64,000 nt of DNA from Cladosporium halotolerans (Eukaryota): the NCBI RefSeq assembly GCF_011745625.1, contig NW_027191476.1:124001-188000 (forward strand). The letters are read 5' to 3'. Below are positions 60,047-63,109 of the stretch, piece after piece. Each line of letters begins with the position of its first letter. Within the stretch, counting starts at the first letter, position 1. The translations under genes and the position numbers were made by a program. The notes beneath the pieces were generated by a model. That model saw only the letters and a program-made list of their open reading frames with translations, did no database searches and was not told where the DNA came from.

Positions 60047-63000
60047 ATGCCGCCAGGCGCGAAACGAGGGCAGAAGCGTGGGACATTCGTCGTTCCATCG
60101 CGAACCAAGCCTCTGGTCAGCAGCACAAAGCATGGCCAGCGGCGCCGTGGGAAGGACGACAATGAAGATGACACCGCAAAACGAACCAAGGACAAAGGTC
60201 ACTCATTCGACCGCGTCACCATAGACGGCCATGCACGAGCCCGACTCGGCAACACATATTGGCAAAACGTGTATCACAGTACTGTTCAACCAAGCGATGA
60301 GTCGTCAGATGAGAAGAAGTGGGCAGCCCTGAAGAAAGCGTTGGCCTTCGACCGAATGGGTCTCCGTTTGGACACCGTGAACCCAGCGCATGCGGACTCC
60401 TGTAGATGGGTTCTCGACACTGAGGCTTTTCAGCGATGGCGCAATTCCGAGCTTCGGGATTCGCACCATGGCTTTTTCTGGATCAAGGGCAAGCCAGGTG
60501 CGGGCAAGTCGACGATCATGAAGTACCTGTACGAGTATGTCCAAGACCAGAAGCTCGGTTTTGTTGTCCTGGCCTTCTTCTTCAACGCAAGAGGCGAGCT
60601 GCTGGAGAAATCTGTCGAGGGCATGTGGAGGTCCCTGCTATACCAGTTGTTCAGCACGGTCCCGGAGTGCCGGAAGATCATCGAGATTCCGGTTTCGAAT
60701 GAGATCGAAAAGACGTGGGAAGTAGCAACGCTCCGAGAATCCTTTCGCAAGGCCGTGCTCTGTCTGCGAGATCGTAAGGTGATCTGTTTCATCGATGCAC
60801 TGGACGAGTGCTGCGATCAAAACGACGCGCGCGACATGGTAGCCTTCCTGGAAAATGTCATGCAATCTACTCATCGAAACAAGATCTTTTTCTACACCTG
60901 CTTTGCCAGCCGGCACTACCCACAGATCACCATCGCACACAGCGAGGAAATCATCGTGGAAAAGGAAAAAGAGCACGAATCAGACATCGAAAAGTACATC
61001 TCAGACAAACTAATCGTAAACCCTCAGGATCTGCGCATTCAACTTGAAACGGAGATTGCTAGAAGGTCACAAGGCGTGTTCATGTGGGTCGTACTCGTGA
61101 CGAGAGAAGTTGTAGAAGCATTTAATCGTGGGGCGATGCGCAAGGAGCTTTTCAATTTGCTAAACAGCCTCCCGAACGATCTTGACGACATGATAAGTCG
61201 CATTATGCGAGCAGGAGCCTCAGACCCTGGCCTCTTGCTCACGCTTCAGTGGATCCTTGTCGCACGAAATCCACGTTCGAATTCCCTCCTTACCCATCTC
61301 TACTTCGGCCTCCGCTTTGCTAGCGGCGAAAAGAAACTGTCGGCGTGGGATCCAATGGAGATCGATTTGAAAGGCATGGCACGATTCGTCGACCACTCAT
61401 CCAAAGGTCTGGTTGAGGTAACGTCGACATGTAGAGTGTGGTGGCGTGATGACTTTCAATGTGAGGAGTTCTGGGACTACGATGTTCATTTCATCCACGA
61501 ATCGGTCAGGGAACACATTTTGGCGGGCGGACTGGCGGTCTTGGATACGAATCTACGACGGAATGTGGAAGCGATGAGTCATGCAAGGATCGCAGACCTG
61601 TGTCAGTCGTGTATCCGCCTCCATCTTCAACGTGTGTCTCCATCAACTGGTTCACATGGAATTCTACCAGGCTGGACAAGCAAAGATCCCATCGGAGAAA
61701 ATCTCACGGCTGAAGACACTTGTGGAGAATCTCTTATGGGTTACCCTCTTCTGCAACTCGCGTACTCTTCTGTCCTTACGCACATGGAAGCTGCTCACGG
61801 GGGAGGAATATGCCAGATGGCTTCCTTACTGCAGTTTCCCTGGAACCAATTGTGTCGATGTGCTGATCGCGACTTCTTCCTTGATAATCTCCTCTCTCAA
61901 ACCAGCCCGTTGCAAATTCTACTGGGGCACGGATGCCCTCAACTGTTGCTCGCCTTGCTGGATTACTACAGAGCTCATTCGCATACAAGTCCTGTCCAGC
62001 CAGCGACACCGGACGCCGAAAGCATAGACAATTCCCTTTCGACCTGTCCAATTTGCGAGTCTCTCGGTGCAACAAATATGGAGTTACCTCTAAATACAGC
62101 TGTACAGTTTGGCTTCCTAAAGATCGTCAACCAAATTCTCGACCTCGGAGTGGACATTCACGCGTTGTCCCCCTGCGTTGTAAGAAGAACTCTTTCCACC
62201 TTGGAAGGTTACGAGATGCTTCAGCTACTTTTGAGCCGCGGGCTAGACATCAATGCGGGAACAGATCAAGACGGTTGCGTACTAGAATTGCTGGTTACGG
62301 ACCTGGGGGAGACGTCGGACCAAGTCCAATGGGTTTTGGATGCTGGGGCAAGTGTCAACATCAAGCCTTCCAAGGGATTCGGCAGCATATTGGAAGCGGC
62401 AATCTGGCCCCCTAATAGATCCGACCGGTACAATAGGCTGAAAAATGTACGACTGCTCCTAGAATACGGTGCCAACGCGACGGGACAAGACAACCCTGTA
62501 CTACCGGCCGCTGCAAGAGTGTGCGATCTAGACGTTATGATATGTCTTTTACAGGCAGGAGCAGATCCTAACGCTAGAAATGCCAATGGCGAGACTGCAC
62601 TACAGATTCTTGCTTCTGCAAGTGGCAATGATGAAGATTACGTCGAAGACGTTGGGGAGCAGTTCGATGAAGATGATCAAGAAGGTGGAAGAACGTATGG
62701 GCAACCCAGAGCTGAAGACCGTGACGACCGGCAAACGATGACCGCGATCCAGCTTTTGGTCGACTACGGTGCCAACATCAACGAAGAGTGTCACTCGTAC
62801 GGCTCTCCACTCATTACTGCAGTCGCCAAGAATAAGTTTTTCGCCGCAGAAGCGTCACTGGATCTTGGAGCGGACACGCTTCATCGTAGTGAGGTTCACG
62901 GTACACCACTAGGCATTGCGTTCGGCAAACCGAATCGCGATATGTTCTGGTTACAATGGCATCTTGGTACAGCAAAATCGGTTGGTCTCCCAAACATGAA

Positions 63001-63109
63001 CGAGCTCCAACGCAAGGAGCTCATGAATGTGATGGGTGGCTCTGGGCCCCGAGAAGAGAAGATCGAACTTGTCAAGGGGATTCTGCCGGCGTTAGTTCCT
63101 TACTTATGA
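60047..63109 (+). CDS. NLR-like protein: N-terminal HET-s-like motif, NACHT NTPase, ankyrin repeats
   Basis: ATG 60047; HADSCRWVL..AFQRW, Walker A GKPGAGKS, Walker B ICFIDALDEC, SQGVFMWVVLV, FIHESVREH; ankyrin repeats (LLQAGADPNARNANGETALQ, LLVDYGANIN). Confidence 0.92.
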   Translation: MPPGAKRGQKRGTFVVPSRTKPLVSSTKHGQRRRGKDDNEDDTAKRTKDKGHSFDRVTIDGHARARLGNTYWQNVYHSTVQPSDESSDEKKWAALKKALAFDRMGLRLDTVNPAHADSCRWVLDTEAFQRWRNSELRDSHHGFFWIKGKPGAGKSTIMKYLYEYVQDQKLGFVVLAFFFNARGELLEKSVEGMWRSLLYQLFSTVPECRKIIEIPVSNEIEKTWEVATLRESFRKAVLCLRDRKVICFIDALDECCDQNDARDMVAFLENVMQSTHRNKIFFYTCFASRHYPQITIAHSEEIIVEKEKEHESDIEKYISDKLIVNPQDLRIQLETEIARRSQGVFMWVVLVTREVVEAFNRGAMRKELFNLLNSLPNDLDDMISRIMRAGASDPGLLLTLQWILVARNPRSNSLLTHLYFGLRFASGEKKLSAWDPMEIDLKGMARFVDHSSKGLVEVTSTCRVWWRDDFQCEEFWDYDVHFIHESVREHILAGGLAVLDTNLRRNVEAMSHARIADLCQSCIRLHLQRVSPSTGSHGILPGWTSKDPIGENLTAEDTCGESLMGYPLLQLAYSSVLTHMEAAHGGGICQMASLLQFPWNQLCRCADRDFFLDNLLSQTSPLQILLGHGCPQLLLALLDYYRAHSHTSPVQPATPDAESIDNSLSTCPICESLGATNMELPLNTAVQFGFLKIVNQILDLGVDIHALSPCVVRRTLSTLEGYEMLQLLLSRGLDINAGTDQDGCVLELLVTDLGETSDQVQWVLDAGASVNIKPSKGFGSILEAAIWPPNRSDRYNRLKNVRLLLEYGANATGQDNPVLPAAARVCDLDVMICLLQAGADPNARNANGETALQILASASGNDEDYVEDVGEQFDEDDQEGGRTYGQPRAEDRDDRQTMTAIQLLVDYGANINEECHSYGSPLITAVAKNKFFAAEASLDLGADTLHRSEVHGTPLGIAFGKPNRDMFWLQWHLGTAKSVGLPNMNELQRKELMNVMGGSGPREEKIELVKGILPALVPYL

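What the first reader, a model, noticed from the sequence alone, without database searches (positions are those of the whole stretch)
60047..63109. NACHT-ankyrin NLR carrying a HET-s-like amyloid-signalling motif (R0/HRAM) with no adjacent effector
Seen: residues 51-71 (nt 60197-60259) read GHSFDRVTIDGHARARLGNTY, just before the NACHT region. Known: the Podospora HET-s prion-forming repeats (about NSAKDIRTEERARVQLGNVV and NSVETVVGKGESRVLIGNEY) align with it without gaps, sharing the hydrophobic positions, G-x-[AS]-R and the terminal [LI]GN-x-Y. NWD2-type NLRs use one such copy to template amyloid folding of a cell-death effector that is usually encoded next door. Seen: the NLR has ankyrin rather than WD40 sensors, a basic 50-aa leader precedes the motif, no N-terminal effector domain is recognisable, and the neighbours are CYT2 and DRE2, with no HeLo/HELL gene visible in the 0.9 and 0.45 kb gaps. 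Inference: an orphan amyloid-signalling immune receptor acting in trans on an unlinked effector, or one that has lost its partner.
Basis: partly seen in the sequence, partly recalled or inferred. Interest (0 to 1): 0.8.

Follow-up and report, generated by a model that had tools for sequence, protein, structure and literature searches.

The report
Fungal immune receptor with amyloid tag
This Cladosporium gene encodes an NLR-type immune receptor carrying a short HET-s-like "amyloid signalling" tag, a real but already catalogued design, and its cell-death partner gene is not next door.

Summary
The ORF at 60047-63109 (+) encodes a 1020-aa NACHT-ankyrin NLR of Cladosporium halotolerans. Residues 51-71 meet every published rule for a HET-s-related amyloid motif (HRAM). 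The histidine at motif position 3 marks subfamily HRAM3.

- **Conservation:** 70 of 92 homologues with a short N-terminus carry the motif at a fixed distance before the P-loop. None of 23 homologues with a fused effector domain carry it. Its glycine (G68) is invariant in 44 of 44 aligned NLRs.
- **Link to effectors:** a profile of the NLR motifs, searched against 1.84 billion proteins, retrieved HeLo pore-forming proteins with two C-terminal copies. A profile built only from those effector tails finds this NLR as the single hit in the window (E 3.4e-4).
- **Partner gene:** the flanking genes are a cytochrome haem lyase and DRE2. No second motif copy lies in the 64-kb window. The whole genome was not available, so the partner is unidentified.
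- **Novelty:** NACHT-ankyrin NLRs with HRAMs, and NLR/effector pairs that are not adjacent, are already in print (Daskalov 2015; Wojciechowski 2022). This is a new member of a known kind.
- **One mildly new feature:** a clade-wide polybasic, NLS-like leader precedes the motif.

The parts
60047..63109 (+). NLR gene: one uninterrupted ORF of 1020 codons plus stop (P0001); the NCBI protein WHR41_07024 of Cladosporium halotolerans has the same start
60047..60196 (+). Basic leader, residues 1-50 (15 K/R, 6 D/E; basic clusters KRGQKRG and QRRRGK); predicted disordered
60194..60259 (+). HRAM r0 motif. HRAM positions 1-21 are K50-T70, followed by Y71. H52 = position 3; F54, V57, I59, A65, L67 = hydrophobic positions 5, 8, 10, 16, 18; R64 = position 15; G68 = invariant position 19
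60398..60889 (+). NACHT / NPHP3_N nucleotide-binding core (residues 118-281); Walker A GKPGAGKS at residues 148-155 (nt 60488-60511)
62081..63106 (+). Ankyrin-repeat and helical-repeat sensor region (residues about 679-1020); the part that differs most from close homologues
61602..62099 (+). 498-nt stretch that the deposited gene model removes as an intron (GT..AG, in frame); most likely coding
   Evidence: in-frame 21-nt indel at 61989 in related contigs
59861..60046 (+). In-frame upstream extension of 62 codons from an earlier ATG; not settled whether it is 5' UTR or coding
58346..59161 (+). Upstream neighbour: cytochrome c/c1 haem lyase (CYT2-like); not an effector
63553..63918 (-). Downstream, convergent neighbour: C-terminal exon of DRE2/anamorsin (CIAPIN1); not an effector

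Best explanation
The gene encodes a NACHT-ankyrin NLR. In place of an effector domain, its N-terminal output module is a disordered tail that carries one HET-s-related amyloid motif (r0, HRAM3-like, His at position 3).

Inferred mechanism, by analogy with NWD2/HET-S:
1. A ligand is sensed by the ankyrin region.
2. The NACHT domains oligomerise.
3. Several r0 tails come together and fold into a beta-solenoid-like amyloid nucleus.
4. That nucleus templates the two-repeat C-terminal domain of a separately encoded effector, which is thereby activated.

The effector is most probably a HeLo pore-forming protein. A ubiquitin-like or PNP_UDP protein bearing the same motif is less likely. The effector gene is not adjacent, so signalling would be in trans, possibly with several such NLRs sharing one effector.

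Shown here: the motif, its conservation, its sequence kinship with the C-terminal repeats of HeLo proteins, the predicted disorder of the tail, and the absence of a partner in the window. Inferred: amyloid folding, templating, and the existence and identity of the partner in this genome.
For: 1. **Published rules met.** All HRAM rules of PMC4518210 (section 3) are met: G at 19, hydrophobic residues at 5/8/10/16/18, R at 15, H at 3. The strict pattern occurs once in the six-frame window against 0.03 expected.

2. **Conservation and position.** Of the 119 homologues examined, 92 have a short N-terminus, and 70 of those 92 carry the motif 75-130 aa before Walker A. None of 23 with long N-termini (fused domains such as PNP_UDP or HET) carry it. 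Two of 4 without a Walker match carry it. So the motif stands where an effector domain stands in relatives. G68 is invariant in 44 of 44 full-length aligned NLRs, like the Walker A residues, and is the only invariant column in 48 motif segments.

3. **Pfam on the 48 segments.** PF17108 'HET-S' matches 7 of 48 (best E 2.3e-05; 24.7 bits against a cut-off of 24.3). PF11558 'HET-s_218-289' matches 4 of 48. All matches are in one constant register. The only other family is gerPA, in 2 of 48.

4. **Search of 1.84 billion representatives with the NLR-motif profile.** 174 proteins reach E<=0.001. Of the 150 listed, 21 are short proteins or fragments with two copies at the C-terminal end. Twelve of these 21 were scanned with Pfam: 9 are HeLo (8 above the cut-off, best 3e-49), 1 is ubiquitin-like and 2 have no family.

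5. **Effector tails match the HRAM3 signature.** In the 21 tails, H is at position 3 in 19 of 21 r1 and 19 of 21 r2, and G19 is present in 21 of 21 of both. A further search with their profile adds a HeLo protein of Polyplosphaeria fusca, a species listed with one HRAM3 in Table 1 of PMC4518210.

6. **Effector-only profile against the window.** A profile made only of effector tails, without the query, was run on all 1508 six-frame ORF pieces. The NLR ORF is the only hit below E=1 (E 3.4e-4). The r2 part of the profile aligns to residues about 42-72. The next best piece has E 2.9.

7. **Predicted disorder.** In the AlphaFold2 model (mean pLDDT 78.3, pTM 0.70), residues 1-84 are almost all below pLDDT 50, while the NOD and repeat parts fold. 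PMC4518210 describes the soluble HET-S prion-forming domain as natively unfolded.

8. **Complex test: weak support.**
- Input: three copies of the 30-aa motif segment plus one HeLo tail (P0165).
- Score 0.53 (median of three runs); best of 3 controls 0.02.
- Calibration: the mark was reached by 51 of 78 solved complexes and 2 of 108 mismatched pairs. At 0.60 or under it was reached by only 5 of those 78, and by all 4 mismatches that passed (of 180).
- The runs agree in at least 89% of contacts; partner pLDDT is at least 72.
- The HET-s fibril is solved, so this pass may come from memory. The effector is from another species.
Against: - The query's own segment matches no Pfam HRAM model: 0 families, and no PF11558 or PF17108 row.
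- The NLR-motif profile hits the solved HET-s prion domain only at E 2.9. That is rank 2-3 of 177,635 PDB sequences and is not significant.
- No partner was found. There is none in the window. A word-based search for short proteins sharing the query's motif gave no candidate. No Cladosporium protein is among the 18 hits of the effector-tail profile.
- The effector tails were themselves found through similarity to the NLR motifs, so points 5 and 6 are not fully independent. What is independent is that these proteins are HeLo proteins with the motif doubled at the C-terminus.
- The motif lies 50 aa from the N-terminus, whereas most published HRAMs start at positions 5-9 (PMC9815663, section 19).
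- The motif carries 5 charged residues (D55, R56, D60, R64, R66), which would stack on like charges in a homotypic r0 assembly. PMC4518210 reports fewer charged residues in r0 motifs.
- No RNA data were available for expression or the start site.
Confidence: 0.65

Rival explanations
1. The motif is a leftover or works only within the NLR. The effector partner has been lost, or never existed for this clade. The r0 segment would then only help the NLR tails to zip together and stabilise the oligomer, or would be functionless, and output would go through another route.
For: - No partner is visible in the 64-kb window.
- Five accessions of the published NACHT-ANK N-terminal cluster XP_007693719 were looked up. 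None appears in the paper's NLR/effector pair tables among the files that could be searched.
- Class NLR40 has 0 neighbours and 0 effectors in Table 1 of PMC9815663.
- The same paper proposes a scaffold role for motifs without an effector counterpart (section 46).
- The motif is not at the extreme N-terminus.
Against: - The motif is kept with an invariant glycine across homologues that share only about 30% identity, so it is under selection.
- HeLo proteins with the same His-type motif doubled at their C-terminus exist in Dothideomycetes such as Pseudocercospora eumusae and Periconia macrospinosa.
- The motif is absent from relatives that carry a fused effector domain: 0 of 23. That fits a stand-in for an effector better than a general oligomer clamp.
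Confidence: 0.2
2. The motif does signal by amyloid templating, but to a non-HeLo effector. One candidate is a PNP_UDP phosphorylase with a single C-terminal copy, as published for the HRAM3-like class NLR12. Another is a ubiquitin-like protein with two copies.
For: - PMC9815663 links the HRAM3-like NLR12 motif to PNP_UDP effectors that are mostly not adjacent: 80 NLRs against 14 effectors in 13 strains (sections 19, 24, 45).
- Several of the 23 long-N-terminus homologues carry PF01048 (PNP_UDP) fused to the same NACHT-ANK chassis.
- Ubiquitin-like proteins with two motif copies were retrieved: P0232, P0259, P0261.
Against: - Among the 12 two-copy proteins scanned with Pfam, 9 are HeLo and none is PNP_UDP.
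- A single-copy PNP_UDP protein would rank low in my searches, so its absence is weak evidence.
Confidence: 0.1
3. The match is a chance resemblance in a region that is not translated or has no function.
For: - The query segment alone reaches no Pfam model.
- The Kozak context at 60047 has T at -3 (the consensus with A at -3 is recalled, not from a call).
- No RNA evidence is available.
Against: - One hit against 0.03 expected.
- Conserved at the protein level in 70 of 92 short-N-terminus homologues, with an invariant glycine.
- The residues between the motif and the NACHT domain (L99, F101) are also conserved, so translation must start upstream of them.
- The only in-frame ATGs upstream of the motif are at 60047 and further upstream at 59861 and 59873.
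Confidence: 0.03

Closest known systems
NWD2 / HET-S of Podospora anserina (HRAM1 paradigm)
   Same: An NLR with a NACHT domain and a single 21-aa HET-s-type motif N-terminal to it instead of an effector domain. The motif shares the hydrophobic pattern, R15 and G19-N20 with HET-s r1 and r2.
   Different: - Ankyrin repeats, not WD40.
- His, not Asn, at motif position 3.
- The motif follows a 50-aa basic leader and is not at the very N-terminus.
- The effector gene is not adjacent.
- No experimental data exist for this protein.
HRAM3 subfamily of HeLo / NLR pairs (Daskalov, Dyrka & Saupe 2015, PMC4518210)
   Same: His at position 3, G19, hydrophobic residues at 5/8/10/16/18 and R/K at 15. The HeLo proteins retrieved here carry the same signature in both repeats.
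   Different: In that study 98 of 155 HeLo genes had an adjacent NLR; here the neighbours are housekeeping genes. I could not see the HRAM3 logo or the sequences (figures and file S1 were not read), so the subfamily call rests on the rules given in the text.
NACHT-ANK NLRs with HRAM-type motifs NLR13/NLR40, N-terminal cluster XP_007693719 (Wojciechowski et al. 2022, PMC9815663, S1 Table)
   Same: - Same architecture: short unannotated N-terminus with an HRAM-class motif, then NACHT, then ANK.
- Similar spacing between motif and NOD. Example: Scytalidium RFU32974.1 has the motif at 56-77 and the NOD from 146, against motif 51-71 and Walker A at 148 here.
- No recorded partner for the five accessions looked up.
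   Different: - In most listed members the motif starts at residue 5-27, without a long leader.
- Cladosporium is not in the part of the table that is held: 0 occurrences, and the file was cut when stored.
- The paper's HMM files could not be read, so I cannot say which of its classes this motif would fall in.
NLR12 (HRAM3-like) / PNP_UDP unlinked system (same paper)
   Same: An HRAM3-like NLR-side motif, with NLR-side copies outnumbering effector copies and mostly not adjacent to them.
   Different: That class is mainly found in Sordariomycetes, and its effector carries a single copy on a PNP_UDP domain. The relatives found here with matching motifs are mostly HeLo proteins with two copies.

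Membership tests
HRAM (HET-s-related amyloid motif), Daskalov 2015 | Invariant glycine at motif position 19 | tested here: met
   G68. Invariant in 48 of 48 motif segments and in 44 of 44 full-length aligned NLRs.
HRAM (HET-s-related amyloid motif), Daskalov 2015 | Hydrophobic residues at positions 5, 8, 10, 16, 18 (T tolerated at 10) | tested here: met
   F54, V57, I59, A65, L67. In the clade, hydrophobic residues occupy these positions in 48/48, 31/48, 37/48 (plus 7 T), 36/48 and 48/48 segments.
HRAM (HET-s-related amyloid motif), Daskalov 2015 | Preference for R/K at position 15 | tested here: met
   R64. R or K in 44 of 48 clade segments.
HRAM3 subfamily | His at position 3 (Asn in HRAM1, Gln in HRAM2) | tested here: met
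   H52. The clade is mixed at this position: H 24, Q 11, R 7, N 5, S 1 of 48. The source paper itself calls the HRAM1/HRAM3 border blurred.
HRAM-bearing NLR (NWD2 type) | Single copy, N-terminal to the NOD, in place of an effector domain | tested here: met
   One copy. No Pfam domain in residues 1-117. 0 of 23 relatives with a fused effector domain have the motif. It starts at residue 50-51, against the usual 5-9.
HRAM-bearing NLR (NWD2 type) | Match to a curated HRAM profile (Pfam PF17108 or PF11558) | tested here: not met
   The query gives no match. Clade members match PF17108 in 7 of 48 (1 above the cut-off) and PF11558 in 4 of 48 (none above it). PMC4518210 reports that only 38 of 155 two-repeat HRAM proteins match PF11558. 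An effector-only profile made here does match the query (E 3.4e-4).
HRAM signalling pair | Cognate effector with two C-terminal copies of the same motif, often encoded by the adjacent gene | tested here: not met
   Adjacency is not met: the neighbours are a haem lyase and DRE2, and there is no second copy in 64 kb. Whether a partner exists elsewhere in the genome cannot be tested, because no genome is held. Such effectors do exist in other Dothideomycetes.
HRAM signalling pair | Amyloid (beta-solenoid) folding, prion-like propagation, templating of the effector | not testable with these tools
   Indirect only: a disordered tail in the AlphaFold2 model, and weak support in the complex test (0.53 against best control 0.02), which may come from memory of the solved HET-s fibril.
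Fungal NACHT-ANK NLR | NACHT/NPHP3_N NTPase with Walker A, followed by ankyrin repeats | tested here: met
   NPHP3_N 1.3e-32, NACHT 1.9e-06, five Ank families, GKPGAGKS at residues 148-155. The folded NOD and repeats appear in the model.

The most novel reading that the evidence does not exclude
The polybasic, NLS-like leader in front of the amyloid motif may be a functional part of the switch and not just a spacer. A 4-of-5 K/R cluster occurs in the leader of 33 of 62 motif-bearing relatives, against 7 of 984 control segments of the same length. Often it is M..sRKRKhSD at the very N-terminus.

The leader could keep the receptor, or its r0 tail, out of reach of the effector by nuclear import or membrane binding. 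Or it could act as a charged gatekeeper that blocks spontaneous amyloid nucleation until the NACHT domains oligomerise. That would be a regulatory layer not yet described for fungal amyloid signalling. Together with the HeLo (HRAM3) partners suggested here, it would define the so far partner-less NACHT-ANK/HRAM clade as a many-receptors-to-one-effector network.
Probability: 0.15. Interest if true: 0.6.

Novelty: new member of a known kind. Interest (0 to 1): 0.3.

Why it matters
The result extends HET-s-type amyloid signalling to a halotolerant Cladosporium (Dothideomycetes) and gives a clean example of an NLR whose amyloid tag is conserved while its effector is unlinked.

It also offers a testable suggestion: the NACHT-ANK/HRAM clade was without a recorded partner for the five members I looked up in the 2022 catalogue, and it may talk to HeLo proteins carrying His-type HRAM doublets.

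Practically, it corrects the deposited gene model, which removes 166 conserved, folded residues as an intron. It also flags a clade-wide basic leader that could be tested for a role in localising or restraining the amyloid tag.

None of this overturns current views. The design principle, the architecture and non-adjacent pairs are all in print.

Tried and rejected
- **Whole genome:** not held, so no genome-wide partner search and no synteny comparison. The tools that fetch fungal contigs were closed or hold only prokaryotes.
- **Word-based search** for short proteins sharing the query's own motif region (residues 36-85, 'shorter'): no candidate.
- **ESM Atlas** on residues 44-80: no usable hit.
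- **Effector-tail profile, 'longer' search:** only 18 hits, none from Cladosporium. The tool warns that long proteins crowd out relatives.
- **Earlier findings of this scan:** nothing for this genome. The word search returned only bacterial BASS cases that do not bear on this locus.
- **RNA evidence:** no RNA holder listed. Laying four runs gave contigs only. No joint across the annotated intron was seen, and no transcript ends can be read from contigs.
- **Window gene 9471-11945 (-), zf-C2H2 + ANK:** checked as a possible relative of the motif-bearing zinc-finger proteins P0123 and P0140. Only generic ankyrin similarity, and no motif. Rejected.
- **P0122 and P0134,** the two top hits: tandem arrays of a short low-complexity unit, not HRAM proteins. 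Set aside.
- **Haemophilus-type IgA1 protease,** the top PDB hit (E 0.45): a beta-helix passenger, taken as a compositional match.
- **Upstream extension:** What I say about it rests on reading by eye (8 differences in 62 positions).
- **Supplements of PMC9815663:** the HMM and FASTA files could not be read, S1 Table is cut when stored, and files 9-11 were not all searched. They may hold the class assignment of close relatives and further pairs.
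Full report
**What is there.** The + strand ORF 60047-63109 is open for 1020 codons. Its N-terminus is identical to the NCBI protein WHR41_07024 of Cladosporium halotolerans (P0002). Pfam finds NPHP3_N (residues 118-281, E 1.3e-32), NACHT (E 1.9e-06) and five ankyrin families between residues 679 and 862. Nothing reaches a cut-off in residues 1-121. 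The 50 residues before them hold 15 K/R and 6 D/E. The upstream gene is a cytochrome c/c1 haem lyase (E 4.5e-41). The downstream, convergent gene is DRE2/CIAPIN1 (E 7.7e-41).

[quoted passage not shown] They are 21-residue units with:
- an invariant Gly at position 19;
- hydrophobic residues at 5, 8, 10, 16 and 18;
- a preference for R/K at 15;
- a subfamily-specific residue at 3 (N in HRAM1, Q in HRAM2, H in HRAM3).

Numbering the window's motif so that G68 is position 19 gives H52 at 3, F54/V57/I59/A65/L67 at the hydrophobic positions and R64 at 15. Every rule is met, with the HRAM3 signature. A regular expression for these rules hits once in the six-frame translation of all 64 kb, against a mean of 0.03 hits in 30 shuffles.

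**Conservation.** A search with the whole protein gave 2444 proteins at E<=0.001 among 7999 scored candidates, and the best 120 were listed. I examined 119 of them, leaving out P0002, which is the same gene.
- 92 have Walker A within 270 residues of the start. Of these, 70 carry the motif 75-130 residues before Walker A.
- Of the 22 that do not, 17 have Walker A at residue 101 or earlier, so their N-termini are too short to hold the motif.
- 23 have long N-termini with fused domains. None carries the motif.
- 4 lack my Walker pattern. Two of them carry the motif.

So the motif stands where relatives have an effector domain. In 48 diverse motif segments the only invariant column is the position-19 glycine. 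In a full-length alignment of 44 NLRs that are 27-63% identical to the query, G68 is invariant together with the Walker A residues. L99 and F101, between motif and NACHT, are nearly invariant or invariant.

**Link to known HRAM profiles.** The query segment itself matches no Pfam model. Of the 48 clade segments:
- 7 match PF17108 'HET-S', a 23-position model. The best is E 2.3e-05 at 24.7 bits, against a cut-off of 24.3. That this model represents the NLR-side motif is my recollection, not a tool result.
- 4 match PF11558 'HET-s_218-289', all below its cut-off.
- All these matches share one constant register. The only other family seen is gerPA, in 2 of 48.

The profile of the 48 segments against 177,635 PDB sequences gives three rows at E<=10: an IgA1 protease beta-helix (E 0.45) and the HET-s prion domain filed under two sequences (2kj3/2rnm/2lbu and 2mus, E 2.9). 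Both HET-s repeats align in register. That match is specific but not significant.

**Link to effectors.** This is the strongest evidence. The same 30-column profile was run against 1.84 billion representative proteins and gave 174 hits at E<=0.001.
- Among the 150 listed, most are NLRs or N-terminal fragments with one copy.
- 21 are short proteins or C-terminal fragments with two copies at or near the C-terminus.
- Of the 12 of these that I scanned with Pfam, 9 are HeLo-domain proteins (8 above the cut-off, best 3e-49), one is ubiquitin-like and two have no family.
- Two carry names: Periconia macrospinosa PVI05386.1 and Pseudocercospora eumusae KXT00219.1, both Dothideomycetes like Cladosporium.
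- In an alignment of the 21 tails, both position-19 glycines are invariant. His is at position 3 in 19 of 21 first repeats and 19 of 21 second repeats. The other rule positions agree with the NLR-side motif.
- A further search with this tail profile returned 18 proteins, mostly HeLo. One is from Polyplosphaeria fusca, a species that Table 1 of PMC4518210 lists with one HRAM3.

A profile made only from these effector tails, without the query, was then run on all 1508 six-frame ORF pieces of the window. It finds the NLR ORF as the only hit below E=1 (E 3.4e-4). The second-repeat part of the profile aligns to residues about 42-72, and the next best piece has E 2.9. The tails were found through the NLR profile, so this is not fully independent. 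What is independent is that the retrieved proteins are HeLo proteins with the motif doubled at their C-terminus, which is the defining layout of HRAM effectors.

**Structure-type evidence.** The AlphaFold2 model used 44 sequences and reached mean pLDDT 78.3 and pTM 0.70. Residues 1-84 are almost entirely below pLDDT 50, while the NOD module (87-530) and the repeat region fold well. The soluble HET-S prion-forming domain is described as natively unfolded in PMC4518210.

A complex test used three copies of the 30-residue motif segment plus the tail of the HeLo protein P0165, and gave 'weak support':
- score 0.53 (median of three runs), best of three controls 0.02;
- the mark was reached by 51 of 78 solved complexes and 2 of 108 mismatched pairs;
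- at 0.60 or under it was reached by only 5 of those 78, and by all 4 mismatches that passed (of 180);
- the runs agree in at least 89% of contacts, and partner pLDDT is at least 72.

The HET-s fibril is a solved structure and the effector is from another species. This shows likeness at most.

**The partner.**
- The two flanking genes are housekeeping genes.
- No second motif copy exists anywhere in the window, by regular expression or by either profile.
- The 59 largest ORF pieces scanned, of 173 with at least 110 codons, show no HeLo, SesA, PNP_UDP or patatin domain. They encode DENN, a PDR-type ABC transporter, a mitochondrial carrier, Alg14, AFG1, a nucleoporin, DUF3405, mevalonate-diphosphate decarboxylase and others.
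- The window ends 891 nt after the stop codon, so anything beyond DRE2 is unseen. No whole genome is held.
- Searches for a Cladosporium partner in the protein collections found none, but both searches are insensitive for this purpose.

Whether the partner is unlinked or lost therefore stays open.

**Comparison with what is in print.** Wojciechowski et al. 2022 (PMC9815663; sections 19, 24, 45, 46 and 61 read; supplements 2 and 4 read or searched) list HRAM-class motifs NLR12, NLR13 and NLR40 in short NLR N-termini.
- Neighbouring effectors within 20 kb were found for only 4 of 110 (NLR12), 16 of 131 (NLR13) and 0 of 24 (NLR40).
- The paper describes signalling between non-adjacent genes and NLR-side copies outnumbering effector copies. 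It speculates that many NLRs may control one effector, or that partner-less motifs may scaffold the NLR oligomer.
- Its S1 Table holds an N-terminal cluster (XP_007693719, 28 rows in the part held) made largely of NACHT-ANK NLRs annotated NLR13 or NLR40. One of them is a Scytalidium protein with the motif at 56-77 and the NOD from residue 146, almost the same geometry as here.
- Five accessions of that cluster that I looked up do not occur in the pair tables, among the files that could be searched.

The architecture, the motif class and the lack of an adjacent partner are thus all published. This locus is a new member, in a genus not present in the part of the table that is held.

**What is a little unusual.** Most published HRAMs start at residues 5-9. 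In this clade the median leader is 49.5 residues, with a range of 1-169, and the leader is basic. Among 62 motif-bearing relatives with a leader of at least 15 residues, 33 have a 4-of-5 K/R cluster, 26 of them within the first 25 residues and often as M..sRKRKhSD. Only 7 of 984 same-length control segments from the rest of the same proteins have one. A search for 'HRAM' together with 'nuclear localization' found 18 papers. None of the 10 listed concerns fungal amyloid motifs. Whether the leader is a nuclear localisation signal, a membrane-binding patch or an aggregation gatekeeper is speculation.

**Gene model.** The deposited protein has 854 aa and lacks residues 519-685, because nt 61602-62099 were called as an intron (GT..AG, 498 nt, in frame). 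That stretch looks like coding sequence:
- it is 35-50% identical to the three close homologues and 25-29% to distant ones, similar to the repeat region;
- it holds nearly invariant columns C519, Y571, H579, A583 and L682;
- it folds into confident helices at 567-585, 591-609 and 621-643;
- it carries a 21-nt, in-frame deletion in related contigs.

The intron is most likely spurious.

The start codon is less certain. An in-frame ATG at 59861 would add 62 residues. That extension is kept in the ORFs P0004 and P0005, with 8 differences in 62 positions by eye. In a 98%-identical relative (run X1), 18 of the 19 substitutions I could count for the contig that spans 59302-60232 lie between 59354 and 59759, and one lies between 59760 and 60232. 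P0003 has an unrelated upstream sequence and shares the Met at the position of 60047. Either start leaves the motif N-terminal to the NACHT domain.

**Verdict.** The feature is real, functional-looking and well explained by the NWD2/HET-S paradigm, but it is a further example of a published class. Interest is modest. The open points are the identity of the partner in this genome and the role of the basic leader.

Noticed in passing
window 61602-62099 (+): The deposited gene model (P0002, 854 aa) removes this 498-nt in-frame stretch as an intron. Homologues keep it, it holds nearly invariant residues, and it folds into confident helices, so the intron call looks wrong and the protein has 1020 aa.
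   Followed up: yes
window 59760-60046 (+), upstream of the annotated start: An in-frame ATG at 59861 would add 62 residues, and the extension is also present in ORFs P0004 and P0005. In a closely related strain's contig almost all substitutions lie upstream of 59760 and almost none between 59760 and 60232. This is either a conserved 5' UTR or an N-terminal extension; no RNA data were available to decide.
   Followed up: partly
P0001 residues 1-50 and the leaders of P0006-P0120: Polybasic, NLS-like clusters (often M..sRKRKhSD at the very N-terminus) precede the amyloid motif in 33 of 62 relatives, against 7 of 984 control segments. Only 3 of 23 relatives with fused effector domains have such a cluster in the equivalent linker.
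   Followed up: partly
P0232, P0259, P0261 (proteins): Small proteins with a ubiquitin-family domain followed by two C-terminal HRAM3-like repeats. This could be an effector or adaptor type for amyloid signalling. It is not mentioned in the main text of PMC9815663, where the word 'ubiquitin' occurs only for the Crinkler domain.
   Followed up: no
P0123 (442 aa), P0140 (594 aa): Proteins with C2H2-zinc-finger-like N-termini and two or three internal HRAM-like copies (P0123 also has C-terminal ankyrin repeats) but no NACHT domain. An unexplained architecture.
   Followed up: partly
P0124 (390 aa), P0219, P0206: Proteins with a SesA/HeLo-like N-terminal region (weak Pfam matches for P0124 only), a single internal HRAM-like motif, and a C-terminal part that looks like the start of ankyrin repeats. 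No NTPase domain is seen.
   Followed up: no
P0066 (922 aa NLR homologue): Carries two motif copies before the NACHT domain: a weak one at 104-122 and the main one at 170-197.
   Followed up: no
window 61989 (+): Contigs of two related strains or metagenomes (runs X1, X9) lack 21 nt here, an in-frame length polymorphism. Divergence from X1 rises from about 2% in the N-terminal half to 4-7% in the ankyrin part, as expected for a fast-changing sensor.
   Followed up: no
window 9471-11945 (-): A gene for a protein with a zf-C2H2_jaz finger and C-terminal ankyrin repeats. It has no HRAM motif and only generic ankyrin similarity to P0123.
   Followed up: yes
P0016, P0044, P0089 (Cladosporium fusiforme): At least three NACHT-ANK NLRs of another Cladosporium species carry the same motif, so the genus has several receptors of this type. 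That fits a many-receptors-to-one-effector arrangement.
   Followed up: no
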